Shown here: positions 12,951 to 54,807 of the stretch, piece after piece
Layout: each line of letters begins with the position of its first letter
How positions within the stretch are numbered: the stretch's first letter is position 1
From: Blastocatellia bacterium
GTDB taxonomy: Bacteria; Acidobacteriota; Blastocatellia; UBA7656
DNA length: 64,000 nucleotides
Assembly: GCA_963765495.1 (NCBI GenBank)
Contig: CAVXWP010000008.1
Span: forward strand, 544,001-608,000
Direction: 5' to 3'
Notes under the pieces: generated by a model
Told to the model about the DNA's origin: nothing
Seen by the model: only the letters and a program-made list of their open reading frames with translations
The model's database searches: none
Made by a program: the position numbers and the translations under genes

Positions 12951-12975
12951 CGCGCCGCTGAATTCGTAGTTAGGC
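12951..12975 (+). repeat. attC-like site, family A, right arm only
   Basis: CGCGCCGCTGAATTCGTAGTTAGGC. Confidence 0.75.
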
Positions 12976-13029
12976 TTTTATCGTTTCCCCAGTCGTCATT
13001 TCTTAGATTTACATATATAATCCTCCATT

Positions 13030-13233
13030 ATGAAACTTAAGGTTATCGTCCATCAGGCTGACGAAGGCGGTTTCTGGGCCGAGGTTCCTTCAATTCCTGG
13101 CTGTGCTACTCAAGCCGATTCATTTGAGGAACTTTTACAAAACATTTATGAAGCAGTTGAAGGCTGTCTCTCAGTTGATCTTTCTCCCTCACAACTTTCT
13201 GAGCAGGACCGTATTCTGGAAATCGCAGTATGA
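13030..13233 (+). CDS. hicB: HicB family antitoxin
   Basis: [30 protein letters not shown], HicB-like fold. Confidence 0.88.
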
Positions 13234-13436
13234 AGGCCATATCAGGCAAGGAGTTCATAAAGATTATTGAGCGAAGGGGCTGGACTTTGCTTAGAGTGCA
13301 AGGAAGCCACTACATTTACGGGAAGACAGGAAGTAACATCCGGCTTTCTATTCCAGTGCATGGGAATCAGGCTCTCAAGACGGGTTTGCTCAGACATTTC
13401 ATGAAAATGGCAGACATTTCAGAGGATGAATTGTAA
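13230..13436 (+). CDS. hicA: HicA family toxin
   Basis: [11 protein letters not shown] and IPVHGN..LKTG motifs; ATGA overlap with hicB. Confidence 0.88.
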
Positions 13437-13504
13437 GCTGCCGGCCTTACAAGATATATCAAAGGAGTTCGATGATAAGAGGGGAAATATGGCCCACGGA
13501 AGCA

Positions 13505-13589
13505 GCCTAACGGCTCATTCCAGCGGACGCGCATTCCAACGTTTCATTATCCCTTCGGCCACAGCGCGCCGCTGAATCCGTCGTTAGGC
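13505..13589 (+). repeat. attC site, family A, intact (85 bp)
   Basis: R'' GCCTAAC, 5-nt spacer, L'' ATTCCAGC, GGACGCGC...GCGCGCC, L' GCTGAAT, 5-nt spacer, R' GTTAGGC; unpaired C and A give bottom-strand extrahelical G and T. Confidence 0.92.
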
Positions 13590-13671
13590 GATCTTCGCAA
13601 TAGTATTCTTATCCTTAAAATTGTAAAATTCGGACGTTTCGTAAAATGCAAGGAAATCTGAGACAAATTAT

Positions 13672-14838
13672 ATGCCGTTTATTCAAGAGCCGCTTTATAT
13701 CGTCACCATTTTGCTTCTCCTGATCGCCGTTTCGGAATGGCTGGCGGAAAAGAGTTTTTTCAAACATATCGGCTCGGTTTTGATAATCATCATCGCCGCC
13801 GCCGTTTTGGCGAATATAGGCGTGATTCCTTCCAGCTATAACGCGCCGCCGCTTTACGACGGCATTTTTCAATACGCCGCGCCAATCGGAATTTTCTTTC
13901 TTCTGCTCGAAGTAAAATTGAAAGATTTGAAATTTGCTGGTTTTCCAATGCTCTTGATGTTTTTTATCGGCGCGGTTGCGACGATGATTGCAGTGATTGT
14001 CGGGTACAAAATCGTTTCGCCGCAGAATCATTTCAGCTCCGCTTATGCCGTGGCCGGAATGTACACGGGAACCTATACTGGCGGAAGCGCAAATTTGAAC
14101 GCCGTCGCGCTCAATTACGGCGTGAACAAGGACGGCGTTTTGTACGCGGCGGTCAACGCGGTTGACAATATTTTGACAACCGTCTGGATGATCTTGACAC
14201 TTCTTTTGCCCTCGCTCTTCCAGAAATTTTTCCCGCGAGAAAGAAACATCCCTCCCCAAATCGCAAATCTTTCCGATGAAGAAATTAGAGAGCGGATTAC
14301 GCAAAACACGAATGCAATCGGTTTGGCCGATATTGTGATTCTGCTCGCGCTCGGTTTCGGAACTCTTTTTGTTGCAACAAAAATCAATGCAAGCCTGCCG
14401 GGGCTTCCCTCGATAATAGTTTTAACGACGCTCGCGCTGATTCTTGCGCAAATTCCGTTTGTGCAAAGGCTTCAGGGGGGTAGAATTCTGGGCTATCTTT
14501 TGATAATGCTTTTTCTGGCGGTCATCGGCGCGCTTTGCGACATCAAGGCTCTTCGGAGCAGCGGCGATGTTGCCGGAACTCTGTTGATTTGGGTGACGAT
14601 TATCGTTTTTTTGCACGGAATGATTATTTTCACGGTTGGTGGTTTGCTGAAACAGGATTGGGATATGGTTTCGATTGCTTCAAACGCGAATATCGGCGGC
14701 GCGACGAGCGCGCCCGTCTGCGCGGTGAGTCTCGGTCGTCCCGATCTACAATTGCCCGGACTGCTCGTCGGAACGGTAGGCAACGCCGTCGGAACCTACA
14801 TGGGGATTCTGGTCGCCGAGTTATTGAAAAATAACTGA
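13672..14838 (+). CDS. DUF819 family membrane protein
   Basis: GTYTGGSANL, SNANIGG and GNAVGTYMG motifs; multiple transmembrane segments. Confidence 0.85.
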   Translation: MPFIQEPLYIVTILLLLIAVSEWLAEKSFFKHIGSVLIIIIAAAVLANIGVIPSSYNAPPLYDGIFQYAAPIGIFFLLLEVKLKDLKFAGFPMLLMFFIGAVATMIAVIVGYKIVSPQNHFSSAYAVAGMYTGTYTGGSANLNAVALNYGVNKDGVLYAAVNAVDNILTTVWMILTLLLPSLFQKFFPRERNIPPQIANLSDEEIRERITQNTNAIGLADIVILLALGFGTLFVATKINASLPGLPSIIVLTTLALILAQIPFVQRLQGGRILGYLLIMLFLAVIGALCDIKALRSSGDVAGTLLIWVTIIVFLHGMIIFTVGGLLKQDWDMVSIASNANIGGATSAPVCAVSLGRPDLQLPGLLVGTVGNAVGTYMGILVAELLKNN

Positions 14839-14963: not shown

Positions 14964-14982
14964 AGCTAACCGCTCATTCCGG
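14964..14982 (+). repeat. attC-like site, family A, left arm remnant
   Basis: AGCTAACCGCTCATTCC, followed by divergent sequence. Confidence 0.6.
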
Positions 14983-15392
14983 CCGTCATCTATTTGTATC
15001 GCATAAAAAAGCCGCGGGCATTGTTAAAAAGATCGGTCGCGCAAGCAATCTGCCGCCTCAACGACAGCCATTCTCAAACTAGATCGCTGTCCGATATCCC
15101 CAATCGCCTCGGCCGATTCAACGCCTCGCACCGCAACCGCACCTCGCTCGCATGGTTCGTGATCATTCAACTCTTCACACACTCCAAATCGACTCGCGGC
15201 AATCGCGGACATGCTGTCTCCACAAATCATTATCATAGCAAACGCTCTATCGGATTTTGTTCGGCAAATGCGGCTGAAGGATGTCGTTGGCAATTGCGAA
15301 TGCGGCGATATGACGATACTCTTATGCAGTGATATCACTGCCTCAAATAAAGATAGCCAGGTGGGCAGTGAAACACGATGATTAGTATGTAG

Positions 15393-17693
<2,301 letters not shown>

Positions 17694-18072: not shown

Positions 18073-18078
18073 TAACAC

Positions 18079-18104
18079 AGCTAACTGCCCATTCCAGCGG
18101 ACGC
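18079..18104 (+). repeat. attC-like site, family A, left arm
   Basis: AGCTAACTGCCCATTCCAGCGGACGC. Confidence 0.7.
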
Positions 18105-18195: not shown

Positions 18196-20418
18196 CTAGG
18201 GGGCGACCTCGAAGGGCGTCTCTTTGGTCAGCACGATTTTTGACTGTGGCTCTTTGACGAGAATACGAAGCGTGTAGAGGCCGGGCTTGAAATCAGGCGC
18301 TTTGAGGCGGCTGCCGAACTCAACCGCGTTGGGTTCCTTGTTCAAGATGAACGATGATAAGGGATGCCATGCGTCTTCCAGAACGATCTCCTCGTCTTGC
18401 AGAATCTGCCCCTGAATCATTACCCCGGCGGCATCCTCGTTGCCAAGCGCGGCTTTGTACGCTTTGCCGTAAAAGGTGATCATATCGCCACGTTGAAAAA
18501 CATTGATGCCGTTGTGAATGTCGGGTTGAATCAGGGTGATGTTGTGCGCGGCCCTGTTGCTGTTGCTTTCGCTCTGAGCCCTCGCGGTTGAGAGGCTGCC
18601 TAAGATCAGCTTTTTCGATTTCAGGTTGGGCACTTCCACCCACGCGGATGCTGTGCCCATCAAATCTGTCCGCGAGTCGCGCACGCCAACGCGAATCTGA
18701 TGCAGGCCCGGCTTCAAGGTGAGCCGCTTGACGTAACGAATAAGCTTGTCTTTGACCTGCTCCGGATGCTCGCCGGATAGACGAACCTGGATCACGTCCT
18801 GCACCATATCGGTGGTCGTGCCATCCGCATCCAGTATGCCGGTCAACATCAGCAAGTTGATCTCAGCGCCATTTTCCTGCTCTTTGTAGCCAAGTTTCTT
18901 GCCATTGATGAAGACAGTGAGCGACACCTGCATCTGATCAGTCGGCGTGTAGTAGAATTCGGCGTCTGCATCGACGTTGATGTCGGTGGTGACCAGCGGC
19001 TCGCCCATTGCTTTGATCAATGCTTCCGCCGGATCGACTACGGCCAATGGTTTTTCTTTGAACAGATCGCTAGCCAGATAACCGCTCTGAGTGCGGACGG
19101 TGTAATCCGGGTGGCCTTTGACGCGGACCTTGATGCTACGAAAGGTTTTCTTGTTATCGGCGTTTGCGGGGTAATAAGACAACTCATAATAAGAGCTGTT
19201 TTCATCCAGCGCCTTTCCCATCGCGCCGAGCAAATCATTGGTGGTCAGGAAAGCTTTGCCGCCGGTGCCTTTGGCGAGGGTTTCCATGCCGCTTTCCATC
19301 TCTCTTTCGCCCGCCGCGGAGTAAAGATGAAATTGCGAGATCACCTGCGGATCAGGCGGCAACTGAGTCCCGATGTCATACATGGCATTGCCCTTCAACC
19401 CTTTGGCGTTCACTGCGTAAATCACCACGCCGGAACGTGAGGCCCGGCTGATGGCCGCGCGCAAATCGTCCAAATCCACTGTGCCGCTGTTGTCGAGCGA
19501 AGTGAATCCATCCGTTGCAAACAGCACCAGCCGCTGGCCGGGCAGTTCGGCCAATCGCGCGGCGACGGCTTTGAGCGTGTCCAGCATCGCGCGCCGTCGA
19601 TAAGTCGCTTCAGCCATGATTTCCCCAGCCCTGGAAATCGTGATGTCTCTAACGAGACTCTCGAAATGCTTGTCATCCGGCAGATGTTCTTCCTGCCGGA
19701 CAACGCTCATCGCCACAGCGGTGGCATCAGAGTCCCGGGCTTGCACCCTGGAGGCCAGAAAGGCGGTATACATACTCGAATACGAGCCCGGTGAAGTGCC
19801 GAGCCGATTCACTGCCGCGCGCAGCACCCGTTTGTCCTGCGTGAACTGGCTGAACAATCCCAGTCCGCCGCCGGTCGAGACGACCGCCGCGAGGTCTTCG
19901 TCGCCTAATTGCTCATCGATGAACTTCAACAAATCGCGTTTCAACCACAGCAAGCTCGAAGTGGACATATGCAATGTATCGACAAACATTACGACGGTAC
20001 GCTTCGGCCGCGTTGTCGGGGTGGCCTGGCGTCGGGCTGCCGGCGAGGAGCCGGGCAGATCAGGGGCACGGCGTTCAACGCTCAAGCGCTCGGCGGAAAA
20101 GAAGCTGATCAACTGCCCGCGCCCGTTTTCGAGAATCTCGAAATCTTCTTTGTTGAGATCAGTGACGACCTTGCCCTGTTTGTCTGTGACCACGGCGCGG
20201 ATCTCCATGAGATCAGCTTTCAGGTGGATAGACTGGTCTTGCGGATCAGGCTTGCCTTGCGCCTTTTTCTGCCGCGCTGAGGCGTCGGGCACAGAAACCG
20301 CCAGTATAAGCAGAACCAGCAGACCGATGATGCGCAAACGGTTTCGGCGCGCGTGCGGGTCAATGAAAATGGGATCCTTGCGCTTTGATTGCTTCGATTC
20401 AGTGAAGATGCTCATCAA
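18196..20418 (-). CDS. VWA domain protein (acidobacterial VWFA-related type)
   Basis: VTDKQGKVVTDL.KEDFEI.ENG..Q.I motif, MIDAS-like FVDTLHMS, LAKGTGG, YELSYYP, VRTQSGY. Confidence 0.85.
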   Translation of the reverse strand: MMSIFTESKQSKRKDPIFIDPHARRNRLRIIGLLVLLILAVSVPDASARQKKAQGKPDPQDQSIHLKADLMEIRAVVTDKQGKVVTDLNKEDFEILENGRGQLISFFSAERLSVERRAPDLPGSSPAARRQATPTTRPKRTVVMFVDTLHMSTSSLLWLKRDLLKFIDEQLGDEDLAAVVSTGGGLGLFSQFTQDKRVLRAAVNRLGTSPGSYSSMYTAFLASRVQARDSDATAVAMSVVRQEEHLPDDKHFESLVRDITISRAGEIMAEATYRRRAMLDTLKAVAARLAELPGQRLVLFATDGFTSLDNSGTVDLDDLRAAISRASRSGVVIYAVNAKGLKGNAMYDIGTQLPPDPQVISQFHLYSAAGEREMESGMETLAKGTGGKAFLTTNDLLGAMGKALDENSSYYELSYYPANADNKKTFRSIKVRVKGHPDYTVRTQSGYLASDLFKEKPLAVVDPAEALIKAMGEPLVTTDINVDADAEFYYTPTDQMQVSLTVFINGKKLGYKEQENGAEINLLMLTGILDADGTTTDMVQDVIQVRLSGEHPEQVKDKLIRYVKRLTLKPGLHQIRVGVRDSRTDLMGTASAWVEVPNLKSKKLILGSLSTARAQSESNSNRAAHNITLIQPDIHNGINVFQRGDMITFYGKAYKAALGNEDAAGVMIQGQILQDEEIVLEDAWHPLSSFILNKEPNAVEFGSRLKAPDFKPGLYTLRILVKEPQSKIVLTKETPFEVAP

Positions 20419-21056
20419 TGCTAACCTTTCGGAGCCGCCATAAGATGCCCCGGTTTAGAGAATCAAATCCACGCCCGTCCGCACGATTACCTCAACAAAC
20501 ACCAGTGATCAAGCGTCTTCTTCCCATATCAGGTTGGGCACGAGCAATGGATTGACATAGGAAGCAGAAGGCGGAGACCGCTCACGCAGCTAGTTGTTCC
20601 CCATCCGTTGAGCTTGATCTAGCCTAATGAAAAACATCGCAGCAGGCAAGTATATTCCTAAGCGCGTAAGGATTACAGTTCACAATAGAAATCAATGATT
20701 TACAGGAAGCGGAAGTAACGGTCGTTTCTGTAACACGACACGCCGAGCCTACAACTTTCCGGTTACTCCGTTCGCCGGATTCAGGCCTCCAGGGGAATGA
20801 GACGCCTCCTTCAGCAGTGGAGGCCCCATTCCAAAAGTGGATGCTGCTTGGGAATCTATTTGAAAAATTCGAGAACACGAATTTCAGATTGGAGATCCGC
20901 TGAATCTGATCTAACTGCTTCTTCCAGCGGATGCGCTTTCCAATTTCCCGTGTTACATCAACTGCCGGATTGGTGCTAAACTCGTCTTTAGCACGCTTCC
21001 CGGCATGACTTTCGTATGAAGCCACCCTACTAGAAGGATTGAAGGAGTGATGGCAA

Positions 21057-21953
21057 ATGAAAAACCTACTGTTCTTGCTCGTCTTATTCTTTTTCGCCAA
21101 TACGGTTTTCGCTCAGGAAGGCGGCAATCGAATTTACGGAAATAGTGGAAACCCCAACCAGCAGCGCCGCCAACCGTCAACTAATACAGGCAATTTATTG
21201 GCTAACCGCCCTAACGCATATTCAATCGAAGCGAGCGTATTACTGAATATGAAACCAGATGCCTTTGTGGCGGTTTTTGGTATCAATGAAGAGGCAAACG
21301 CTTCGGCTGAAAGCAACGAGCGAATCAATACGAAAATCAACGAATTCACAAGAGCCATAAGTTCCCTCGGCATCTCTCAAAACGATACTTTCGTTGATTT
21401 CATCACACAGAATCGTGTCTATGATTATACGGTGGAAGGCACAAAAGCGACGGAAACATTTTCAGGGTTTGAAACTAAGAAAACGATAGCCGTGCGCTAC
21501 AAAAGGCGAGACCTGTTTGAGAAAATTCTAACGGCGGCAGCAAATGTGCAAATATTCGACCTGATTAAAGTTGATTATATCGTTAGTAATTTCGACGCGG
21601 TTCACGACCGTTTGTTTGAAGAAGGTGTAAAAATCATCAAGGCCAAAGAAGCAAAATACACTAAATCTTTTGGCGTAAAACTCGAACCCTTCGGTTTAGC
21701 AAACGAAAAGTATGATGCATTTTATCCGTCGGAGAGTTACGAACGTTATCAAGCCTACGAAACGGGTGAGGCTTACACTGGTTACAACAATTCAAGTAAA
21801 GTTATCCAGCGCAAGAGCTTTACCTTCTTCTATCAGCCGCTTGACGGGAACCGTTTCGACCTTGTGATAAATGAGCTTGGCATTGAGCCGGTCGTGCAAT
21901 TTACTCTTTATTTGCGAATGGACTACAATACGGAAGGACCCAAAGAAAAATAA
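21057..21953 (+). CDS. SIMPL (DUF541) domain secreted protein
   Basis: Signal peptide; ASVLLNMKPD.FVAVFG and DFITQNRVYDY pattern. Confidence 0.65.
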   Translation: MKNLLFLLVLFFFANTVFAQEGGNRIYGNSGNPNQQRRQPSTNTGNLLANRPNAYSIEASVLLNMKPDAFVAVFGINEEANASAESNERINTKINEFTRAISSLGISQNDTFVDFITQNRVYDYTVEGTKATETFSGFETKKTIAVRYKRRDLFEKILTAAANVQIFDLIKVDYIVSNFDAVHDRLFEEGVKIIKAKEAKYTKSFGVKLEPFGLANEKYDAFYPSESYERYQAYETGEAYTGYNNSSKVIQRKSFTFFYQPLDGNRFDLVINELGIEPVVQFTLYLRMDYNTEGPKEK

Positions 21954-21991
21954 TTTCACAGGAAGCTCTACCTGTCTCCCTGGCGGCAAAT

Positions 21992-22058
21992 GCGGACGCA
22001 CATTCCAACGCATTCTTTTCCACCAGCTACCTGCGCGCCGCTGAATTCGTAGTTCGAT
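21992..22058 (+). repeat. attC-like site, family A, left end degenerate
   Basis: GCGGACGCACATTCCAAC...GCGCGCCGCTGAATTCGTAGTTCGAT. Confidence 0.8.
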
Positions 22059-22084
22059 GGCCACGAGTGACTTTAGGAGTTGAG

Positions 22085-22621
22085 ATGCAATTGGCAAAGG
22101 CTTACTTCCATCTTGTAACGTTGGTCATGCTACTCACACTTGCCAGCACCTCCATCGTGGCGCAATGCCCTTTTGCACCGGATGGTTACTTCGTATTCGC
22201 AGGACCTGCCCCCAAAGGGTTCAATGATGTCGCATTGATAGCCCTCTGGGACTACCGGCGAAAGCGTGGCACCGAGTTGTCACCCGGTGTCTACCTCACG
22301 GACGCAAATGCGTTTGCGCTCGAGGAGTCGACCATTACGACAGGACCGAACGGACTGGGTTTCACGTGGGTGTTCAGTACATTTGAAAGCAACGGGGTTC
22401 GCTACGTCTTCGATGGACGGTTTCAGGATGTGTGCAATTTCGCCGATCCAAGCATCGGCAAGGCTGGGCGAGTTCTTCTCGAGGGGCGCTTAGAGAGGCG
22501 TGAGCACAATGTGACGATAGCGGCGGCTGATGCCAAGTTCGTCTTCTACGCGCGACTTCCTCCGAAGCTCAGGCGGTTGGCGCGATTTGCTGGCAGCCAC
22601 AAAGGCAAGCCGCTGAACTAG
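22085..22621 (+). CDS. Hypothetical secreted protein (gene cassette)
   Basis: AGGAG RBS, signal peptide, bounded directly by attC sites. Confidence 0.7.
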   Translation: MQLAKAYFHLVTLVMLLTLASTSIVAQCPFAPDGYFVFAGPAPKGFNDVALIALWDYRRKRGTELSPGVYLTDANAFALEESTITTGPNGLGFTWVFSTFESNGVRYVFDGRFQDVCNFADPSIGKAGRVLLEGRLERREHNVTIAAADAKFVFYARLPPKLRRLARFAGSHKGKPLN

Positions 22622-22703
22622 CGGTTGCAGCGGAGACGGCGCAATCGATGCTGTTCGTTCATCCAGGGGGTTCGCGCCAGCCCGCTGAACCTCATCGTTA
22701 TGC
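22612..22703 (+). repeat. attC site, non-family-A type (92 bp)
   Basis: GCTGAAC-N5-GTTGCAGCGG...CCGCTGAAC-CTCATC-GTTATGC, overlapping the gene end. Confidence 0.8.
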
Positions 22704-22878
22704 TGCTCGATTTTCCAGCAATTCTTTGTCTGGATGGCACACGAATTATTTCGCTTTTCCCTATGGATTCATGTTCCCAATTGATTATCATTGCGATTCT
22801 ATATAGAATCAGAACCCGTTAGAAATCCTTATTTTCTGGTTAGTGACTGATCCAATTTATGCAATGGTTGAAGGAGTG

Positions 22879-23400: not shown

Positions 23401-23485
23401 GCCTAACTGCTCATTCCAGTGGACGCGCTTCCCACCTTCTCATGTTCCATCCGACCACAGCGCGCCTCTGAACTCGTCGCCAGGC
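23401..23485 (+). repeat. attC site, family A, R' mutated (GCC instead of GTT)
   Basis: GCCTAACTGCTCATTCCAGTGGACGCGC...GCGCGCCTCTGAACTCGTCGCCAGGC. Confidence 0.85.
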
Positions 23486-23530
23486 TCTCGCAGATGTCCT
23501 GATATTCTTGGAATGGATGAAACAATGAGC

Positions 23531-23657: not shown

Positions 23658-23761
23658 GCCTTTTCATTCGAATCAACCTTCAAGTTTTTTTGTCGCATAC
23701 GGCGCGCAAGTTAAAACTGTACGGCCATGATGAGCTCTCCAATTGATTTATAAAAGGTTTA

Positions 23762-24077: not shown

Positions 24078-25067
24078 ATGAGTAATACCATCTATACCGG
24101 CAGTAACGCCGCCACTCGGCCTCCCGGCTTCGGTGGTCGTAAGACAGGATTCTCACATGACGGAGAATTAAGCGGCAACCTGGAAAGTAATCCGCATAAT
24201 CAGGTGCACGTCGATGTAGGTGGCATCAATACGGATCAAACGGTCTGGGGACTGATGAGTGATCCAGGACTAGCTGCACTTGACCCGATCTTCTATTTAC
24301 ACCATTCAAACATTGACCGGATGTGGGCAGCCTGGAATGCGAATGGAAACAGCAACCCGACTAATCCAAACTGGCTTAACGGACCCGCATCCATCGGGGA
24401 GCGGGAATTCGTAATGCCACTTCCGGACGGCAGTTCCTGGGTGTATACTCCAGGCGATGTAAATAGTCTCGATCAGTTGGATTATACTTATGATGATCTG
24501 ACTGTGACTGTTTCGCTCCAACCCTCCAACAGGCTTGGCCAAAGGTTGAGGAGATTGGGAGCGGCGCCAGCAGCGGGGAGCATAACGCCGGGAGTTAATA
24601 TGGACAGCGAAGTTAATGCGGAACTCTTCGGAGCCCACGATGGAGATCTTCGGATAAAGAGCTCGGGAGCTCGCGCAACTGTCAAGCTTGATTCCAGCGT
24701 CCGGAAGAACGTGTCTGCGAGTCTCGCGGCAGCTTCTGATGCGAGACCGCCTGATCGGGTATACCTCCAGCTTGAAAATGTCCGAGGAAACATAGACGCA
24801 TTTAAACTCAACGTCTCTGTCAACCAACAGCGTGCAGGAACTGTTGCACTTTTCGGACTTCGGAGGGCTAGCTTAAAGGACGGCGGGCACGGCGGCCAGG
24901 GGCTCACCTTCGTATTGGACATCACGGATATCATCGACAATCTGTTCCTTAACAATGCTCTCGATGCGGATTCGCTCGATGTGAGGATTGAGCCCAATCA
25001 TGCTGTTCCGGATAGTGCGGCGCTCACGGTCGGGCGAGTCAGCATCTACCGCCAAGGGGAGCAATGA
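24078..25067 (+). pseudogene. Tyrosinase/catechol oxidase, 5'-truncated
   Basis: CuB site present (PHNQVH, DPIFYLHHSNIDRMW); CuA N-terminal half absent. Confidence 0.8.
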
Positions 25068-25207
25068 TAATAAGTACCCGAGAGCGTGCACGGGTTACTA
25101 TCCCGATACTGCTCATAAGCCTGGTAACGTGGATGATGCTTCTGGTAAATCCCGGAAGCATCATGACCATTGCCCACTGTCCGGTAACAGACTCGGGAGC
25201 ATCACTA
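25064..25207 (+). pseudogene. DUF2182 membrane protein, 5' part (interrupted)
   Basis: ATGA-coupled to tyrosinase; reads MIISTRERARVTIPILLISLVTWMMLLVNPGSIMTIAHCPVTDSGASL and continues in frame at 32881 once the insert is removed. Confidence 0.85.
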
Positions 25208-26591: not shown

Positions 26592-26593
26592 TA

Positions 26594-26894
26594 GTGGTCT
26601 GACCCTGCCATTCGATTTCGGGATGTACACTCGGCGCACAGGTTGAGGTTTAAACGTCTCTGAGTGCAACTGTTGTCTGAGTCGTTGAAGATTTTCTTCA
26701 AGCTTCTCATCGAAGTGGCGCATGTTTATGCCGTCACAGCCTGCGGTGATACTGCCCACATTTTGCTTAACATAATCGTGAGCCAGTTGCAGCCAGTCCT
26801 TGTCATAGAGAAGGTGGTATAAGTCAAAGAAGCGGTGCTCTTTGTCTTGCTCCGCCCATAAGCTAAGTTTCCTTTGCATTTCACCGACATTCAT
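26594..26894 (-). pseudogene. ltrA: Group II intron reverse transcriptase/maturase, N-terminal fragment
   Basis: RFFDLYHLLY, TAGCDG, FKPQPVRRVYIPKSNGRVRPL (RT0-RT1 region). Confidence 0.92.
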
Positions 26895-36650: not shown

Positions 36651-36736
36651 GCCTTGCTGCTCATTCCCGCGGACGCGCATTCCAATGCTTCAGTTTCCCA
36701 TTACCTACAGCGGGCCGCTTTGTGCCTCAATTTGGC
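36651..36736 (+). repeat. attC site, family A, degenerate
   Basis: GCCTTGCTGCTCATTCCCGCGGACGCGCATTCCAA...AGCGGGCCGCT. Confidence 0.75.
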
Positions 36737-43263: not shown

Positions 43264-43290
43264 GGCGCGACGCTGAATTCGGCGTTAGGC
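43264..43290 (+). repeat. attC-like site, family A, right arm
   Basis: GGCGCGACGCTGAATTCGGCGTTAGGC. Confidence 0.75.
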
Positions 43291-43377
43291 TCGCTGATTG
43301 CCATTTATTAACATCTGATTTACAGTATCGCTGTGATCGCAAATCGAAATAATTCCAATCAGTCACTATTTGATCTC

Positions 43378-44451: not shown

Positions 44452-44562
44452 ATCTAACAATTCATTCAACCCCACCGCCCTCAGATTGCCATTCATAAAC
44501 ATTCTTTGGGTTCATTCATGTTGCCGCTTGCGGCGGGCGGCGGGTTAATACGGGTGTTAGGC
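44452..44562 (+). repeat. attC site, non-family-A type (111 bp)
   Basis: ATCTAAC-AATTC-ATTCAACCC..CCGCCC...GGGCGGCGGGTTAAT-ACGGGT-GTTAGGC; ATCTAAC is the exact complement of GTTAGAT at 43549. Confidence 0.88.
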
Positions 44563-44590
44563 ATCCAGGGTTCGCTACCGAGGTAGAGTA

Positions 44591-45083: not shown

Positions 45084-45168
45084 TCCTAACCACTCATGCC
45101 AGCGGACGCGCTTTCCAACATTTCGTGTTCCACCAGTTCCCTGCGCGCAGATGAATCCGTCGTTAGGC
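45084..45168 (+). repeat. attC site, family A (85 bp)
   Basis: TCCTAACCACTCATGCCAGCGGACGCGC...GCGCGCAGATGAATCCGTCGTTAGGC. Confidence 0.88.
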
Positions 45169-45500
45169 TTTCTTCCATTTGTGCCAAGGTTCTGGCTTAT
45201 TTACACTTGATCTGCATACTCAACATCAAGATAGCCTCTTCAATTCTCGATGGGTCTGCAATCTGCCTTCTTATAGTCAGATTGCCTCTGGCTTGACTAT
45301 ATAAGCGACCAGTCCTCCTACCTCCGCTCGCTCCGCCTGAGCCTTGACCTTTCCTTGCAGTGTCTCAAGTGTTGCTTTTGCTCGGCGACGGTCCATACAG
45401 TAATCAATATCCCTTTAATTCATGTGATTTTTCCTGATGACTGCAACCTATTGCTCACCTGTAGCACTGACTGGGTGGTTCATCTCATATAGGGGGAATT

Positions 45501-48107
45501 ATGGAGACTTTCTGGCAGGACCTGCGTTATGGCTTGAGGATTTTGCTAAAACAGAAAGGAGTAACGGCGACCGCCTTGCTCTCATTGGCGCTCGGCATTG
45601 GCGCAAACACGGCTCTCTTCAGCATAGTTGATGCGATGCTGTTGAAAACGCTCCCCGTTAAAGAACCGGAGCGGCTGGTGCTTTTCCGATCTGTCTCCCC
45701 ACACGAATTTAGTCCCGGCAGCTATGGTGGCTATTGGGACCTCGATCCGGCGACAGGGCAAAATGTTATGACATCCTTCCCTTACCAAAGCTACTCGCGG
45801 ATGCGCGAGCAGCAGAGCGTGCTGTCGGACCTCTTCGCTTTTGGAGATGTCAGTCTGAATGTGAACGCCGACGGGCAGGCCGACGTAGCCAAAGGGCAGG
45901 CTGTATCAGGCAACTATTACGCCGGGCTGGGTGTCTAGGCGATACTTGGCCGTACACTTACCGATGAAGATGATCGGGCAGGAGCCAGTCCTGTTGCCGT
46001 ACTCAGCTACCGTTACTGGCAAAGTCGCTTCGGCGGCGACGTTGCGGTAATAGGCAAACAGGTCAACTTGAACAATGTCGCCTTCACGATCATCGGAGTC
46101 ACGCCGCCGGGCTTTGAAGGAACAATGCAAGTCGGCTCGACCGAGGACGTAACGATCCCTATTGCATGGGAGCCGCAACTCTATGTAGACCCCAAAAGTT
46201 CGCGGATGTACGGTGCGGGCCAATGGTGGTTGCGACTGATGGGGAGATTGAAACCGGGAGCGACGCCCGAACAGGCAAAGGCCCAGTTGGAAAATGCGTT
46301 TCAACAATCCGTCATCGAGCATCGAGGCGCACGGCAGGCCCAGGCGCGAGCTTCAGGCGGGAATCCAATCAATGATTTAGACTCAAAGGATTATCCGAGC
46401 CTCTTTCTCGACCCCGGCGGGCGGGGCGAAATGAATGAGCGGCGGCATTACGCGCCATCGCTTTATCTATTGCTCGGCGTTGTCGCGCTGGTGCTGCTGA
46501 TTGCGTGTGCGAACGTGGCAAACCTTTTACTGTCACGGTCGGCGGCGCGACACAAAGAGATCGGCCTTCGGCTGGCACTTGGCGCGAGTCGCTGGCGGCT
46601 GGTTCGACAGATGTTGACGGAAAGCGTGCTACTGGCAAGTCTGGGCGGGGCAATCGGTATTGCCTTCGCGGTCTGGATCAAGGACGGATTGCTGGCTGTG
46701 AGTGATTGGGGCGGAAGAGGGATGAGCGCACTGGAGCCACAACTCGACTGGCGCGTGCTGGGGTTCACTATGGGGCTGTCGTTGTTGACGGGGATTATCT
46801 TTGGTCTCGTGCCAGCGTGGCGTCTAACAAATGTAGATTTAACTTTAGCGATCAAAGGGAGCGGACGAGTTTCGAGCCTGGCATCGCGTTCGTTGCTGAG
46901 TCGTGGGCTGGTAGTTTCACAAGTGGCGCTATCATTACTGCTTATGGTTGGCGCGGGGCTGTTTGTGCGGACACTGCTCAATCTGAAACGTGTGGACCCG
47001 GGCTTCAATACACACAATCTGCTGTTGTTCACCGTCCGGCCAGGATTGCTTGGCTACAAGGACGAAAGAGTGACGCAAATATTTGAGCAATTAGCCGAAC
47101 ACATCGAAGCACAGCCGGGCGTACAAAAGGTTACCTTTTCTGGTGTTCCATTACTTGCAAGGATTCAAAGCACACGTAGCGTCTATTTGCGTAACGCGCT
47201 GACTGCCGTGCCCGATGCAGAAGGGAAAATCAAACCAAGCGGGCAGTGCAAAATTAATCACTTGCGCGGAAATTTTCTGGAAGTGATGGATATTCCACTC
47301 CTAGCCGGACGTGCGCTGAACGCGCGCGACGACGCGAGTGCGCCAGAAGTAGTGATCGTCAACCAGACCTTCGCCAGCCAGTTTTTCCCCAATGAAAACC
47401 CCATTGGCAAACGCTTCACCTTCAATTCTAGTAAACCCGACGAATTCGAGATTGTTGGCCTCGCCAGGGATGCAAAATACACGAAGCAACGGGACGAGAT
47501 TTCCCCAACTGCTTATGTGCCGTGGCAGCAATGGCTAAGCGCAATGGAAGGTAAAGCAACTTTTGAGGTACGCACCGCAGGTGAGCCTACCAGCGTTATT
47601 ACAGCGATTCGCCAAGCCGTGCGCGAGGTAGATAGCGATCTGTCGCTTGCTGACGTTCGCACCCAGATCGAACAAGCCGATCAGACGCTGGCAATGGAAC
47701 GATTGTTAGCCAAGTTGATGACGTTGTTCGGGTTGCTCTCTCAGCAACTCGCTGCGATAGGGTTGTTCGGGATAATGGCGTATTCGGTTTCGCAACGCAC
47801 GCGCGAAATTGGGATTCGCATGGCAGTCGGGGCAAATCGCGGCGACGTATTAAAGATGGTTTTGCGGCAGGGGATGACACTTGCCTTTCTAGGCCTCGTG
47901 TTGGGGTTGACTTGTGCGTATGTGTTGACAAAGTATCTGGAAAGCTGGATGAATCTATCGCAGATGTTTTATGGTGTACCTCTTTTCGATCCGTTAACCT
48001 ATAGCCTGATTACCGTATTGCTTATGCTAGTGGCGATGCTGGCCTGTTTGATACCAGCATGGCGAGCAGCGAAAGTTGACCCTAATGTGGCGCTTCGCTA
48101 CGAGTAA
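45501..48107 (+). pseudogene. ADOP/MacB-type duplicated ABC permease with an in-frame amber stop
   Basis: [47 protein letters not shown]; a single TAG at 45936-45938 (GLGV*AILGR). Confidence 0.88.
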
Positions 48108-49486: not shown

Positions 49487-49572
49487 GCCTGACTGCTCAT
49501 TTTAGCGGACCTTACATGCCAACGATTCAATATCCCGCTGCTACTAGGGCGTCGCTGAATTCGTCGTTTGAC
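49487..49572 (+). repeat. attC site, family A, degenerate
   Basis: GCCTGACTGCTCATTTTAGCGGAC...GCGTCGCTGAATTCGTCGTTTGAC. Confidence 0.8.
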
Positions 49573-51786: not shown

Positions 51787-51887
51787 GTCTGGTTGCTCAG
51801 TCCAACCGACGCGCATGCCAGATTCTCGTGTTCCATCTATTGAAACGCATAGGGGGCCGCAGCACGCCACTGAATCCGGCATTTCTC
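51787..51887 (+). repeat. attC-like site, family A, highly degenerate
   Basis: TGCTCAGTCCAACCGACGCGCATGCC...GCACGCCACTGAATCCGGC. Confidence 0.6.
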
Positions 51888-51954
51888 ACCATAACCTGCA
51901 CAGTTGAACTCTCTACTCAATCAATCATAGTATGTCGATAGGTGGAAATTGCTT

Positions 51955-52449: not shown

Positions 52450-52502
52450 TTCTGTGATCAATTCTCTTCTGAGTCATAACCCTGTACCCGAAATACACCC
52501 AT

Positions 52503-52931
52503 TTATGATTCCAGCTTCGCATCCATAGTTATTTTTGCATTCAACAGCCGCGATATTGGACATCCTTGCTTCGCATTGTTGGCTGCCGTTTCAAAAGCCT
52601 CAGGGCTTGCTCCGGGAACATTTGCTTTCACATCCAGATGGACTTCGGTGATGGTAAAACCTGCCTCTGTCTTGTCCAAAGTTACGGTGGCTGTCGTGTT
52701 GATACTATCTGCAACCAGCCCCGCCTGACCCAGTTGCCCCGAAAGAGCCATCGAAAAACAGCCGGCGTGGGCTGCTCCGATTAACTCTTCGGGGTTTGTG
52801 CCAATCCCATCCTCAAATCTGGTGCTGAAGGAATACTGAGTGCTGGAAAGTACCCCGCTATCAGTAGATATAGCCCCTTTTCCGCTCTTGAGATCACCCT
52901 GCCAAACCGCAGAAGCTTTTCGTTTCATCAT
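52503..52931 (-). CDS. osmC: OsmC family peroxiredoxin
   Basis: GTNPEELIGAAHAGCFSMALS, AKQGCPISR. Confidence 0.93.
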   Translation of the reverse strand: MMKRKASAVWQGDLKSGKGAISTDSGVLSSTQYSFSTRFEDGIGTNPEELIGAAHAGCFSMALSGQLGQAGLVADSINTTATVTLDKTEAGFTITEVHLDVKANVPGASPEAFETAANNAKQGCPISRLLNAKITMDAKLES

Positions 52932-53141
52932 ACCCTCCTAAAAATAAAATAACTGCCGACAAGAAAGCATATCATCCAAAAGCCTATTGAGGCGAAGTGA
53001 TACGGAGAGTAGGATAATATGTCGTCTCGTCAATTTGTAATATGACATCCCGAGTTTTGTCGCATTTCGTCTTGGCGTAAGAACAGCTTCCCTCACGGGT
53101 TTAACATCAATCGGGTTATTTATTTCGCAGGGTTGGGAATT

Positions 53142-54215
53142 ATGGCTATAGAAGAACACTTGAATATTTTGAAGCAGGGCGTTGTGGCATGGAATCAATG
53201 GATCAAGACAAACAGGGGGATACGGCCCGATCTTCGTGATGCTGATCTCAGTGGCCTCAATCTTTCCAGCATCAATCTTAAGGAAGCCTGGCTAAAGGGT
53301 GCGAATCTCACAAAAGCCAATCTACAGAAAGCCAAACTTGACAACGCCTACATGAGGAACGCAAATCTCAGCCGTGCGAACCTCACAGAAGCGTCTCTTT
53401 CAGGGACCAATTTGAGACACGCCATATTACAGAAGGCAAAACTCAGACGTGCCTATCTTAGAAGGGTAGACTTCAGTTACGCTGATTTGAGTGGCGCAGA
53501 CCTGAGCGAATCAGTTCTTGAGTATTCCAGATTCGTAGACACCAATCTGAAGAATGCGAATATCAAGTCCTGTTTCATCTATGGAGCCTCGGTTTGGAAT
53601 ATACAGGGCATCCCCAAAGACCAATCCAACCTGATTATTACTCCACGCCCGTTGAAGAGCGCCGCACGCAATGAGCCAACGATCAAAGTAGATAATCTCG
53701 AACTGGCTCAATTCATCTATCTGCTTTTGAATTATGGAAAGCTTCGTGATGTTTTGAATTCCATTACGAAAAAAGGGGTACTGATTCTGGGACGTTTCGG
53801 AGGAGGCGGGCTTGATGTTTTGCATTCGATTGCTTCTAAGTTGAGAGAGATGGAGTATCTGCCGATCATCTTTGACTTTGATAGACCGGAGGACAGAAAT
53901 TATACGGAAACGATCAAGACACTGGTGGGGTTATCTCGATTTGTCATCGTTGATCTAAGCGGCCCCTCAGTCCCACAGGAACTCTACGCAACGGTTCCTC
54001 ATTTTAAGGTGCCGTTTATACCTATAATTGAAAAAGGCAGACATCCATATTCATTATTCATAGAACTCTTTGAGAATGACCATGTCTTACGGCCGATAAT
54101 TGAGTTTGAAAGCATAAAGGACCTGGTTGAGTTAATACCATCTAAAATCATTGCTCCTGCGGAAGAGAAACAGAAGGCGAGACAGAAACTCTTAAGCGAA
54201 TTGTTCGATTCGTAA
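53142..54215 (+). CDS. Pentapeptide-repeat protein with a C-terminal alpha/beta domain
   Basis: EHL.ILKQGV..WN.W, A(N/D)L repeats, VLILGRF...SRFVIVDLS.PSVPQEL. Confidence 0.85.
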   Translation: MAIEEHLNILKQGVVAWNQWIKTNRGIRPDLRDADLSGLNLSSINLKEAWLKGANLTKANLQKAKLDNAYMRNANLSRANLTEASLSGTNLRHAILQKAKLRRAYLRRVDFSYADLSGADLSESVLEYSRFVDTNLKNANIKSCFIYGASVWNIQGIPKDQSNLIITPRPLKSAARNEPTIKVDNLELAQFIYLLLNYGKLRDVLNSITKKGVLILGRFGGGGLDVLHSIASKLREMEYLPIIFDFDRPEDRNYTETIKTLVGLSRFVIVDLSGPSVPQELYATVPHFKVPFIPIIEKGRHPYSLFIELFENDHVLRPIIEFESIKDLVELIPSKIIAPAEEKQKARQKLLSELFDS

Positions 54216-54271
54216 TTGAACTCTTTGCAGGAAAGCAGAAAATCCCATCCATCTCGATTCGAAAGGAGAGC

Positions 54272-54745
54272 ATGGTGATAAATTCCCGCTCACAAAAAAA
54301 GATAGACGATTCTCATTTCGTCCCCTACTCCTAAGAGTTTTATGATGTCATCGGAGATGCCCCAAGTTTCTTCAAGGTCATTGATACGAATGCCCATGAA
54401 GGGCATGTATACGTCAAAGATGAGGATGCCCTCTACTTTACGACAGTCCCGCAAAATACAAGTATTCCTCTTTCGGGATTCAAAGAGGTGGCTATAAAGT
54501 GGTAAGTCCCGGGATTCCCGACGGCATGAAACTGGACTCGGCGGGCCGCGTCTACAGTTCATCGGCAAGCGGGCTGTTAGTATATAATGCCTCCGGCGAT
54601 TTGGTTGGAGAGATACTGGCACCGGGAGTAGCCAATTTCACATTTGGCGGTCCTGAAAACTAATGTCATCTACATGATGGCCGATACGGTGATATGGGCA
54701 GCAGAAATCAAGGCCGTCGGCGCAACTCGGCCACAAACTGCTTAA
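54272..54745 (+). pseudogene. SMP-30/gluconolactonase, internally deleted with stops
   Basis: Fragments AHEGHVYVKDEDALYFT and PDGMKLDSAGRVY..ANFTFGG, separated by stops and frameshifts. Confidence 0.8.
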
Positions 54746-54807
54746 CCGCTTTTTCGGGCAGATGCTTATATAGAAGAAGCGGGCCGCTGATTTTGTTCTC
54801 AGTCGGC
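54740..54807 (+). repeat. attC-like site, family A, highly degenerate
   Basis: GCTTAACCGCTTTTTC overlapping the pseudogene stop, then AGCGGGCCGCTGA. Confidence 0.5.

What the first reader, a model, noticed from the sequence alone, without database searches (positions are those of the whole stretch)
12951..54807. ~42-kb integrase-less integron-like cassette array built on one 85-bp attC family
Seen: about 15 co-oriented copies or remnants of one repeat, at 12951, 13505, 14964, 18079, 21992, 23401, 33597, 35808, 36651, 42316, 43264, 45084, 49487, 51787 and 54740. Two unrelated attC sites lie at 22612 and 44452. All fall inside the accessory island and none in the housekeeping flanks. The 13505 copy has the full architecture: R'' GCCTAAC, L'' ATTCCAGC with one extra base, a second extra A, L' GCTGAAT, R' GTTAGGC. 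Established: this is the IntI substrate, and homogeneous attC families (like Vibrio VCRs) mark sedentary chromosomal integrons. No tyrosine recombinase is in the window. Inference: a lineage-specific sedentary integron or CALIN in a probable acidobacterium, where I know of little characterisation of such arrays. This structure explains the island and is invisible in the ORF track.
Basis: partly seen in the sequence, partly recalled or inferred. Interest (0 to 1): 0.88.

Follow-up and report, generated by a model that had tools for sequence, protein, structure and literature searches.

The report
Eroded integron cassette array without integrase
A 42-kb stretch of a soil acidobacterium's chromosome is a chain of integron gene cassettes whose recombination sites are genuine but mostly decayed and whose integrase is missing: a known kind of element, seen here in a little-studied phylum.

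Summary
The repeat is real and is an attC site. My own covariance model finds 10 strong copies, all on the + strand and all between 12.9 and 54.8 kb. A second model, trained only on 43 attC sites next to integron integrases in other genomes, finds 7 window sites. Copy 13505 folds as a textbook attC bottom strand. Thirteen of 18 sites start within 250 nt after a + strand ORF stop. No tyrosine recombinase is in the window, so it meets the definition of a CALIN. The host is a Blastocatellia acidobacterium.

- The arms of the site are not lineage-specific. They are the arms of integrase-linked attC sites in Rhodanobacteraceae and Lysobacterales. Only the 31-nt loop is private to this array.
- The array is eroding. 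Only 6 of 18 sites keep both conserved triplets, there are four to five half-sites, no compensatory changes, and insertions of IS630 and a group II intron remnant.

Verdict: a new member of a known kind, of moderate interest.

The parts
12909..12975 (+). attC remnant, right part only (loop remnant, L' GCTGAAT, R' GTTAGGC). It marks the left end of the array and abuts an AT-rich gap and the housekeeping gene ubiD.
   Evidence: family D1; 12893-12976, E 0.23
13030..13436 (+). Cassette 1: HicB-like antitoxin (13030-13233) and HicA toxin (13230-13436).
   Evidence: Pfam
13505..13590 (+). Best-preserved attC: R'' GCCTAAC, 5-nt unpaired spacer, L'' with an extra base, a second extra base, 31-nt loop, L' GCTGAAT, R' GTTAGGC.
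   Evidence: -20.5 kcal/mol, z -3.25, 0 of 200 shuffles as good; 101.6 bits; 60.9 bits, E 2.4e-15
13672..14838 (+). Cassette gene, DUF819 membrane protein. Its closest named relatives are from Pyrinomonadaceae (72-78% identity).
14964..14992 (+). attC left half only (R'' AGCTAAC plus L'').
   Evidence: D5; 11.7 bits, E 1.7
15432..17693 (+). Catalase-peroxidase KatG in a 3.1-kb inter-site segment with G+C 0.586.
18079..18104 (+). attC left half only. It ends in GCGGACGC, the same 8 nt with which the 21992 right part begins.
   Evidence: (D5)
18196..20418 (-). Acidobacteria-type VWA domain protein (TIGR03436), in the reverse orientation.
20909..20994 (+). Full-length but degraded attC (R' reads TTTAGCA).
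   Evidence: 73.2 bits; E 0.81
21057..21953 (+). Cassette gene, SIMPL/DUF541.
21978..22061 (+). attC lacking R'' and L''. The inner stem, loop, L' and the GTT triplet are kept.
   Evidence: 42.2 bits, E 3.2e-8; not in the training set
22612..22712 (+). Candidate attC of another type (R'' GCTGAAC, R' GTTATGC, bulged stem). It is not confirmed by either model.
   Evidence: z -0.84; E 7.5
23401..23486 (+). Family attC with a mutated R' (GCCAGGC).
   Evidence: 91.9 bits; E 2.7e-9
24078..25067 (+). Tyrosinase C-terminal part plus DUF7868. It probably formed one cassette with the PpoB2 chaperone before the IS insertions.
25205..26595 (-). IS630-family element, copy 1 (1391 bp).
   Evidence: (100% identical to copy 2)
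26577..26894 (-). Group II intron reverse transcriptase/maturase fragment (first 68 of 353 profile positions), cut by IS630 copy 1.
31495..32885 (-). IS630-family element, copy 2.
32857..33411 (+). PpoB2 copper chaperone.
33597..33682 (+). Family attC with both R boxes mutated (GCCTTAC and GGTAGGC).
   Evidence: 84 bits; E 2e-5
35808..35893 (+). Well-preserved family attC (AAC and GTT both kept).
   Evidence: 90.1 bits; 57.8 bits, E 2e-14
36651..36736 (+). Family attC with R'' mutated and R' lost.
   Evidence: 71.4 bits
36897..42224 (+). Five co-oriented genes with no recognisable attC between them: an unknown gene, an MBL-fold hydrolase, an unknown gene, DUF305/CopM-like, and a 672-aa protein with a weak sub-threshold match to the choice-of-anchor B family (43.1 bits, cut-off 100).
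   Evidence: 5579-bp segment
42316..42406 (+). Site with R'' AGCCAAC and family L'/R', but a non-family left arm. It is weak.
   Evidence: 42368-42399, E 5.7
43264..43295 (+). attC right half only. It starts 1 nt after the stop of the DUF4386 gene (42477-43262).
44452..44570 (+). attC of a different, longer type. The model trained on integrase-linked sites recognises it.
   Evidence: 44452-44563, 33.6 bits, E 4.3e-7
45084..45169 (+). Family attC (AAC and GTT both kept).
   Evidence: 88.1 bits; E 1e-7
45501..48107 (+). ADOP-family duplicated permease (TIGR03434) split into two ORFs. It is probably a pseudogene.
49487..49572 (+). Family attC with R'' GCCTGAC and R' GTTTGAC.
   Evidence: 77.4 bits; E 4.1e-6
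51787..51888 (+). Family attC with an insertion and with both R boxes lost.
   Evidence: 33.3 bits, E 5.5e-6; not in the training set
54424..54660 (+). Fragment of an SMP-30/gluconolactonase-like gene (a pseudogene) in the last segment.
54740..54832 (+). Weak last remnant (R'' GCTTAAC, L'-like GCTGATT). It marks the right end of the array.
   Evidence: (9.2 bits, E 5.8)

Best explanation
This is a chromosomal integron cassette array with no integrase in reach, that is, a CALIN. It sits in a Blastocatellia acidobacterium and is in an advanced state of erosion.

Each unit is, or was, a gene or small gene group followed by an attC site. If an integron integrase is supplied, the bottom strand of an attC folds into a hairpin with two extrahelical bases and an unpaired central spacer. 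The integrase cuts between the A and C of AAC on the bottom strand (G|TT on the top strand). Two attC sites recombine to excise a cassette circle, which can then enter an attI site.

In this array that machinery is gone from the neighbourhood. The leftmost site is itself truncated and abuts housekeeping genes, so the integrase and attI end was lost by deletion or separated by a rearrangement. Since then most sites have drifted without selection for pairing, and IS630 copies and a group II intron remnant have been inserted. The genes now behave as an ordinary accessory island of stress-related and unknown functions.

A few sites (13505, 35808, 45084, 44452) still look usable by an integrase acting in trans.

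Shown: the attC identity, the co-orientation, the position at gene ends, the absence of an integrase from the window, and the decay.
Inferred: the order of events, and any residual activity.
For: - Canonical anatomy. The bottom strand of 13505 folds into an R-box helix, a 5-nt unpaired spacer on each side, and a 14-bp stem with single T and G bulges on the 3' arm. The energy is -20.5 kcal/mol against -13.6 +/- 2.1 for shuffles, and 0 of 200 shuffles fold as well. These are the three unpaired features named for attC sites in PMC5027507 (passages read).
- Own model R2. It gives 10 hits at E <= 5.5e-6, all on the + strand and all inside 12.9-54.8 kb.
- Independent model R3. It was built only from 43 attC sites in 11 loci of other genomes that carry an integron integrase (TIGR02249 at 480-486 bits against a cut-off of 265 for 5 of 5 tested; profile hits in 11 of 69 loci; canonical divergent geometry in all 11). 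It finds 7 window sites at E <= 2e-5, all on the + strand.
- Position. Thirteen of 18 sites start within 250 nt after a + strand ORF stop, against 19.5% expected (p 1.8e-6). None of 18 lies inside a listed gene, although listed genes cover 76% of the island. Of the listed ORFs, 31 are on the + strand and 12 on the - strand.
- No integrase.
- Erosion. In the window, 78.6% of pair cells are paired and 0 of 21 pairs show a change on both sides. In the integrase-linked sites, 90.7% are paired, with 47 compensated cells in 9 pairs, and 0 of 500 shuffles reach this. Only 6 of 18 sites keep both AAC and GTT. There are half-sites at 12909, 14964, 18079 and 43264, and a fifth site at 21978 that lacks R''/L''. 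Two identical 1391-bp IS630 copies are present.
- Host and cargo are acidobacterial. All 19 organism-bearing names among the 120 listed SelB relatives read Blastocatellia (15) or Acidobacteriota (4), at 69-74% identity. Among the 120 listed DUF819 relatives, the closest named ones (3 of 7 that bear an organism) are Pyrinomonadaceae at 72-78%; the other 4 named ones are Chitinophagaceae at 67-69%. TIGR03436 and TIGR03434, both families typical of Acidobacteria, occur in the array.
- A HicAB toxin-antitoxin pair forms the first cassette. That such pairs are typical of chromosomal arrays is recalled knowledge.
Against: - IntegronFinder's generic attC model was not available, and Rfam holds no attC family (0 hits). 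The model test therefore rests on two models made here.
- Of the 7 family copies folded, only 13505 is clearly more stable than shuffles in the attC shape. The other z-scores are -0.65, -0.91, -0.10, -0.10 and +1.16, plus -2.12 for 20909 in a shape that is not the attC shape.
- Several inter-site segments are far larger than usual cassettes: 10.1, 5.6, 4.3 and 3.1 kb. Five of 18 sites do not follow a + strand ORF within 250 nt.
- Gaps above 4 kb mean IntegronFinder's default clustering would report several small CALINs rather than one array.
- Only 64 kb of a contig of 943,533 bp was seen. An integrase may lie elsewhere, and the sites might still be used.
- No relative's locus could be compared, so loss of the integrase is inferred from the truncated left end alone.
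Confidence: 0.85

Rival explanations
1. The array is a detached but still working part of a sedentary chromosomal integron. The integrase lies elsewhere in the genome, and cassettes from this array are still excised and reshuffled in trans.
For: Only 64 kb of a 943,533-bp contig was seen. Four family sites (13505, 35808, 42316, 45084) and two sites of other types (22612, 44452) keep both conserved triplets. Copies 13505 and 35808 score as high as genuine integrase-linked sites with model R3 (60.9 and 57.8 bits). Cury et al. found half of all CALINs in replicons that also encode IntI (PMC4889954, passage read).
Against: Most sites are broken. Twelve of 18 lack AAC, GTT or a whole arm. There are no compensatory changes, whereas integrase-linked arrays show 47 compensated cells. 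IS and intron debris and at least three pseudogene-like cargo genes point to long inactivity.
Confidence: 0.2
2. The array was imported recently from a Xanthomonadales (Rhodanobacteraceae) integron by horizontal transfer, which would explain the shared attC arms.
For: The left-arm pattern occurs in 69 stretches of the species-representative genomes. Forty of these are titled Rhodanobacteraceae, Rhodanobacter, Frateuria or Lysobacterales, and only 2 are Acidobacteriota (titles counted by hand). The arms are nearly identical over about 33 nt.
Against: The island's G+C is 0.507 and the flanks are at 0.53, whereas the median of the 69 loci is 0.608. The window shares no cassette with the loci: blastn finds only two attC arms, and tblastx gives only weak MOSC and SelB-flank hits. 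The 31-nt loop motif is absent from all 69 loci. The cargo includes Acidobacteria-type families, and the DUF819 gene is closest to Pyrinomonadaceae. L' is GCTGAAT here but GCTAAAT in most of the other arrays.
Confidence: 0.05
3. The repeat is a REP-like, MITE-like or terminator-like intergenic element that has nothing to do with integrons.
For: It is an intergenic imperfect palindrome. The window does carry another palindromic repeat family that behaves like a REP element and also occurs in the housekeeping flank (families D6-D8).
Against: All copies are on one strand and none is in the flanks. The asymmetric bulges and the RYYYAAC/GTTRRRY ends are those of attC sites. The same arms lie in arrays directly beside integron integrases in 11 loci. 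A model trained on those sites recognises the window sites.
Confidence: 0.03

Closest known systems
[quoted passage not shown] 2016, PMC4889954)
   Same: It has two or more co-oriented attC sites with no intI nearby and no intI pseudogene within 10 kb. The cargo is mostly unknown and not antibiotic resistance. IS elements are present.
   Different: With up to 18 sites it is in the large tail: only 6.6% of CALINs had more than 10 sites (passage read). Several gaps exceed the 4-kb clustering rule. Many sites are half-sites or mutated.
Chromosomal integrons of Rhodanobacteraceae and Lysobacterales (order Xanthomonadales), with 59-nt and 91-nt attC sites
   Same: The R'', spacer, L'' and inner stem are nearly identical, as are the matching 3' arm and R'. 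The bulges are in the same positions.
   Different: Those arrays sit beside intI (11 of 69 loci), have G+C around 0.61, have a 3-5-nt loop or a different long inner stem, use L' GCTAAAT and have a 6-nt 3' spacer. The window has a private 31-nt loop, L' GCTGAAT, a 5-nt spacer, no intI and acidobacterial cargo. Whether these are the 'Xanthomonadales-like' clade of Ghaly et al. 2021 was not tested.
Vibrio superintegron with VCR repeats
   Same: It is a long chromosomal array built on one homogeneous attC family with a conserved loop. It holds toxin-antitoxin cassettes and mostly unknown cargo (recalled knowledge).
   Different: Vibrio arrays have an adjacent working intI/attI and well-kept, highly identical sites. 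Here the mean column identity is 76% and the integrase is absent.
Xanthomonas integrons with inactivated intI (Colombi et al. 2025, PMC12444791)
   Same: An ancestral platform lost its activity, leaving stable 'frozen' cassette arrays and CALINs at fixed chromosomal places (abstract and passages read).
   Different: In Xanthomonas the intI remnant usually stays downstream of ilvD. Here no remnant is detectable, and the left end of the array is a truncated attC.

Membership tests
attC site (integron cassette recombination site) | Inverse core R'' RYYYAAC and core R' GTTRRRY at the two ends, complementary to each other | tested here: met
   13505 has GCCTAAC and GTTAGGC. Six of 18 sites keep both AAC and GTT. 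The others are mutated or are halves.
attC site (integron cassette recombination site) | Imperfect inner repeats L''/L' with extrahelical bases on one arm only, an unpaired central spacer and a variable terminal structure | tested here: met
   In the fold of the 13505 bottom strand, T and G bulges lie on the 3' arm, 5 nt are unpaired on each side and there is a 31-nt loop. The feature names come from PMC5027507.
attC site (integron cassette recombination site) | Recognised by a covariance model of genuine attC sites | tested here: met
   The IntegronFinder model was not available. The surrogate R3, built from 43 integrase-linked sites of other genomes, finds 7 window sites at E <= 2e-5. Rfam has no attC family.
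attC site (integron cassette recombination site) | Recombined by an integron integrase as a folded bottom strand | not testable with these tools
   This needs a suicide-conjugation or excision assay.
CALIN | At least two attC sites on one strand less than 4 kb apart, with no intI nearby | tested here: met
   Sites. No intI within 12.9 kb to the left or 9.2 kb to the right. With the 4-kb rule the array would split at the 10.1-, 5.6- and 4.3-kb gaps.
Complete integron or sedentary chromosomal integron | An intI gene with the IntI-specific domain next to the array, divergent from the cassettes | tested here: not met
   Nothing was found in six frames or by Pfam. Where intI is expected, left of 12909, lies ubiD.
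Complete integron or sedentary chromosomal integron | An attI site and a Pc promoter at the head of the array | not testable with these tools
   attI sequences are not known for this lineage. The first site is a truncated attC, not an attI.
Complete integron or sedentary chromosomal integron | More than 19 attC sites, or presence in all genomes of the species (criterion of Cury et al. 2016) | tested here: inconclusive
   There are 18 sites at most, 10 of them model-significant. No conspecific genomes were available.
REP or MITE-type dispersed repeat | Copies in both orientations, spread over core and accessory regions, unrelated to gene ends | tested here: not met
   No significant hit on the - strand, none in the flanks, and 13 of 18 sites lie just after + strand ORF stops. 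Only the window was tested.

The most novel reading that the evidence does not exclude
The array is the fossil of a native Blastocatellia integron. Its cassettes were made in that lineage, as shown by acidobacterial genes, host-like G+C and a private 31-nt loop. Yet they carry recombination arms that are the same sequence as those of Xanthomonadales integrons.

That would mean one attC 'dialect', and by implication one integrase clade and one cassette pool, is shared across phyla in soil. It would also supply the non-Xanthomonadales carrier that Ghaly et al. 2021 said they lacked to decide whether their Xanthomonadales-like attC clade is a taxonomic or an environmental group.
Probability: 0.35. 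Interest if true: 0.55.

Novelty: new member of a known kind. Interest (0 to 1): 0.36.

Why it matters
The finding explains a 42-kb accessory island that an ORF-based annotation would show only as unrelated genes.

It adds a large, well-documented cassette array from Blastocatellia. I found no specific description of integrons in that class: the search returned 1 paper with three of four terms, and it concerns beta-lactamases. Integrons as such are reported for the phylum (PMC8618304).

It gives a clear picture of what an integron array looks like after the integrase is lost: half-sites, uncompensated stem mutations, and IS and intron debris.

The shared arms with Xanthomonadales integrons, set beside native cargo and a private loop, bear on two open questions: how attC sites are generated, and whether attC types follow environment or descent.

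No resistance or virulence concern arises from the cargo seen here.

Tried and rejected
- Rfam at gathering thresholds over the whole window gave 0 hits. Rfam at E <= 1 over 26400-28700, searched for group II intron RNA, also gave 0 hits.
- Model R1 was built with a structure string one column out of register. I noticed this and did not use it. R2 replaced it.
Cluster sizes and accession names of window proteins are therefore unknown.
- The genome-contig scan did not return the window's own genome. The rest of the genome, any intI in it, and the genome-wide spread of the repeat stayed unchecked.
- blastn and tblastx of the window against the 69 loci found no shared cassettes.
- A search for terminal inverted repeats around the 3.9-kb segment that separates the 18079 and 21992 half-sites found nothing convincing.
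- PADLOC on 36 island proteins gave only a type II methyltransferase, cyclase-domain similarity to PycC, and reverse-transcriptase and homing-endonuclease domains. No complete defence system was seen.
- The pentapeptide-repeat protein (53133-54215) matches Qnr and other pentapeptide models far below their cut-offs. I do not call it a resistance gene.
- Supplementary tables of Ghaly et al. 2021, which list the Acidobacteria genomes and attC sites used for their model, are closed. They could show that this attC type is already catalogued.
- Structure prediction, fold search, complex prediction and the protein atlas were not used, because no claim here depends on them.

Full report
**1. What is in the sequence**

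A repeat of 86 nt recurs on the + strand between 12.9 and 54.8 kb (repeat families D1, D2, D4 and D5; printed copies).

Covariance model R2 was built from eight full copies (alignment A2; model). Run over the whole window with filters off, it gives ten hits at E <= 5.5e-6: 13505, 23401, 35808, 45084, 33597, 49487, 20909, 36651, 21978 and 51787. All are on the + strand. Two (21978 and 51787) were not in the training set.

The next hits are:
- the palindromic echo of 13505 on the - strand (E 0.057);
- the right-part remnant at 12893-12976 (E 0.23);
- 42368 and 54740 (E 5.7 and 5.8), which are no better than a handful of chance hits in the flanks at E 1.6-9.5.

Half-sites are seen by reading: left halves at 14964 and 18079, and right halves at 12909-12975 and 43264. 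The site at 21978, already counted among the ten hits, also lacks its R'' and L''.

The 23-nt left-arm pattern has 6 matches at up to 2 mismatches, against 0.00 expected from shuffles.

One copy (20909) was missed, and two copies (42316, 54740) are weak.

**2. The repeat is an attC site**

The bottom strand of 13505 folds into:
- a terminal helix made by GCCTAAC and GTTAGGC;
- an unpaired spacer of 5 nt on each side;
- a 14-bp stem interrupted by a single T and a single G on the 3' arm only;
- a 31-nt loop.

The energy is -20.5 kcal/mol against -13.6 +/- 2.1 for 200 shuffles, none of which folds as well. These are the extrahelical bases, unpaired central spacer and variable terminal structure that define attC sites (PMC5027507, passages read).

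On the eight-copy alignment, 78.6% of pair cells are paired. When the 3' partners are slid by 1-3 columns, only 25-42% are paired.

No generic attC model was on hand and Rfam has none (0 hits), so I made an independent test.
- R2 finds 173 sites in them at E <= 0.001.
- Eleven of the 69 stretches encode an integron integrase (profile hits). Five of five tested reach 480-486 bits on TIGR02249, whose cut-off is 265.
- In all eleven, the integrase lies at the R'' side of the array and diverges from it.
- Model R3, built only from the 43 sites of those eleven loci, finds seven window sites at E <= 2e-5: 13505, 35808, 23401, 45084, 44452, 49487 and 33597. All are on the + strand and all inside the island.
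The other, 22612, scores only E 7.5, and its fold is not better than shuffles. It remains a candidate.

**3. The sites sit where cassette sites should**

- Thirteen of 18 sites start within 250 nt downstream of a + strand ORF stop. Only 19.5% of island positions do so (binomial p 1.8e-6).
- None of the 18 starts inside a listed gene, although listed genes cover 76% of the island.
- There are 31 listed ORFs on the + strand and 12 on the - strand.
- The first cassette is a HicB/HicA pair.
- Other cargo:
  - DUF819;
  - KatG;
  - an Acidobacteria-type VWA protein;
  - SIMPL;
  - a tyrosinase fragment with the PpoB2 copper chaperone;
  - a beta-carbonic-anhydrase-like protein;
  - an MBL-fold hydrolase;
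  - DUF305/CopM-like;
  - two DUF4386 proteins;
  - a MOSC protein;
  - an ADOP permease split in two;
  - a GIY-YIG domain protein;
  - OsmC;
  - a pentapeptide-repeat protein;
  - many ORFs without any family.
- The annotated part leans towards oxidative and copper stress.
- PADLOC shows no complete defence system.

**4. No integrase**

- Pfam finds no tyrosine recombinase in 65 main ORFs, nor in 230 further stop-to-stop frames of 72 aa or more.
- A profile of nine integron integrases taken from the fetched loci, run without filters over all six-frame segments of 25 aa or more, gives nothing better than E 2.5. tblastn gives nothing better than E 0.15.
- By the geometry seen in all eleven complete integrons, intI should lie left of 12.9 kb. 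That region instead holds ubiD, a subtilase, pyrR, pyrB, pyrC and haem synthesis genes.
- The leftmost site is itself only a right part, preceded by an AT-rich gap without ORFs. This looks like a breakpoint inside an attC.
- The array therefore meets the definition of a CALIN (PMC4889954, passages read).
- Under IntegronFinder's 4-kb rule it would be reported as several CALINs, because three gaps are 10.1, 5.6 and 4.3 kb.

**5. The array is eroding**

- Only 6 of 18 sites keep both the AAC of R'' and the GTT of R': 13505, 22612, 35808, 42316, 44452 and 45084. Among the ten family copies with two arms, four do.
- Of the seven family copies folded, only 13505 is clearly more stable than shuffles in the attC shape.
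- No pair shows a change on both sides, so every departure from the consensus breaks a pair.
- In the 43 integrase-linked sites, 90.7% of cells pair, and 47 cells in 9 pairs are compensated. None of 500 shuffles reaches this.
- Two 1391-bp IS630-family copies, 100% identical, bracket 4.9 kb between the tyrosinase fragment and its chaperone.
- A group II intron reverse-transcriptase fragment is cut by one of these copies.
- An ADOP permease is split, and an SMP-30-like gene survives only as a fragment.
- I infer relaxed selection on the sites after the integrase was lost or moved away. The order of events is not shown.

**6. Host and origin**

- The window's SelB is 100% identical to a protein on a 943,533-bp contig. 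Its next relatives are 69-76% identical.
- All 19 organism-bearing names among the 120 listed rows read Blastocatellia bacterium (15) or Acidobacteriota bacterium (4).
- The DUF819 cassette protein is closest, among named hits, to Pyrinomonadaceae (72-78%), followed by Chitinophagaceae (67-69%).
- The island has G+C 0.507 and the flanks 0.53.

The attC arms, however, are not private to this lineage.
- Of the 69 stretches with the left-arm pattern, by title:
  - 40 are Rhodanobacteraceae, Rhodanobacter, Frateuria or Lysobacterales;
  - 24 are other or unclassified Proteobacteria;
  - 5 are from other phyla: Pyrinomonadaceae, Terriglobales, Gemmataceae, Saccharimonadales and Melainabacteria.

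  These counts are by hand. Most are MAGs, so mis-binning is possible.
- Their 59-nt and 91-nt sites share R'', spacer, L'', inner stem and 3' arm with the window's sites almost base for base.
- What differs:
  - the window has a loop of about 31 nt, whose motif is found in 7 window copies and in none of the 69 loci;
  - L' is GCTGAAT rather than GCTAAAT;
  - the 3' spacer is one base shorter.
- The loci have a median G+C of 0.608 and share no cassettes with the window.
- Recent import from Xanthomonadales is therefore unlikely. A shared site type with local cargo is the better reading.

**7. What is already known**

- CALINs are common. Cury et al. counted 279 in complete genomes, of which 6.6% had more than 10 sites. 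The proposed origins include loss of intI and rearrangements (PMC4889954).
- Integrons have been detected in Acidobacteriota (PMC8618304, passage read).
- An Acidobacteria attC model exists among 11 taxon models (PMC8352920, passages read).
- The same paper found 'Xanthomonadales-like' attC sites almost only in Xanthomonadales (935 of 941). It stated that, lacking other carriers, it could not tell a taxonomic group from an environmental one. I could not test whether the arm type seen here is that clade, because the supplements are closed.
- Xanthomonas offers a precedent for arrays frozen after intI inactivation (PMC12444791, abstract and passages).
- Searches for integron work on Blastocatellia or Pyrinomonadaceae returned one paper, on beta-lactamases. 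I saw only the listing.

**8. Verdict**

This is an integrase-less attC cassette array in a Blastocatellia chromosome.

It is a new member of a known kind, with two features worth recording:
- its advanced decay;
- recombination arms shared with integrase-linked arrays of Xanthomonadales, alongside native cargo and a private loop.

Still open: whether an integrase exists elsewhere in the genome, whether the array is conserved in relatives, and whether any site still recombines.

Noticed in passing
window 5275-5379, 23546-23660, 43376-43425, 48164-48235: A second repeat family, unrelated to attC. It consists of palindromic units of about 50-100 nt rich in CGGAT/GGCC motifs (families D6-D8, which are reverse complements of one another). 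One copy lies in the housekeeping flank after the hemY-like gene, so it looks like a genome-wide REP-like or terminator-like element.
   Followed up: no
window 25205-26595 and 31495-32885: Two directly oriented, 100% identical 1391-bp IS630-family copies bracket 4.9 kb. That segment carries a GAF-GAF-PAS adenylate/guanylate cyclase (28624-30708) and small unknown ORFs. The whole structure looks like a composite transposon inserted between a tyrosinase fragment and its PpoB2 chaperone.
   Followed up: partly
window 26577-26894 (-), up to about 27545: A group II intron reverse transcriptase/maturase fragment (first 68 of 353 profile positions) is truncated by IS630 copy 1. A GTGCG motif on the - strand at 27545-27541 could be the intron's 5' end; that this motif is the 5' consensus is recalled knowledge. 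Rfam found no intron RNA at E <= 1. Some group II introns are known to target attC sites (recalled), but no attC remnant was seen beside this one.
   Followed up: partly
window 18079-18104 and 21992-22061: The left half-site at 18079 ends in GCGGACGC, and the right part at 21992 starts with the same 8 nt. Joined, they would make one complete family attC. The 3.9 kb between them holds a VWA gene on the - strand, the degraded attC at 20909 and the SIMPL gene, and may be an insertion with an 8-bp duplication. No terminal inverted repeats were found.
   Followed up: partly
window 20895-20915: An L'-like CCGCTGAAT lies directly upstream of the R'' of the 20909 site, as if the stump of another attC were fused to it.
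   Followed up: no
window 45501-45938 and 46068-48107: An ADOP-family duplicated permease (TIGR03434) is split into two ORFs that cover profile positions 1-124 and 169-803. It is probably a broken gene.
   Followed up: no
window 24078-25067: The 'tyrosinase' ORF matches only the last quarter of the Pfam tyrosinase model (positions 158-213 of 214), plus DUF7868. The copper-binding N-terminal part seems to be missing, and a REP-like repeat lies just upstream.
   Followed up: no
window 54896-56116: A type II N4/N6 DNA methyltransferase with no visible restriction partner sits at the right edge of the island. This stretch has the fourth-lowest G+C among the 2-kb windows (0.456). It may belong to the accessory region rather than the core.
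   Followed up: no
locus L036 (Pyrinomonadaceae MAG) 704-791 (-): This is the only other Blastocatellia-related hit. It is an 88-nt attC with the same arms and L' GCTGAAT as the window, but a different loop. Two weak further sites lie on the same strand (4207-4307 and 1865-1966). The locus G+C is 0.514, like the window's.
   Followed up: partly
window 13672-14838: The search with the DUF819 ORF did not list a 100% self-match (best hit 90%), unlike the SelB search. The deposited gene model may use another start codon.
   Followed up: no
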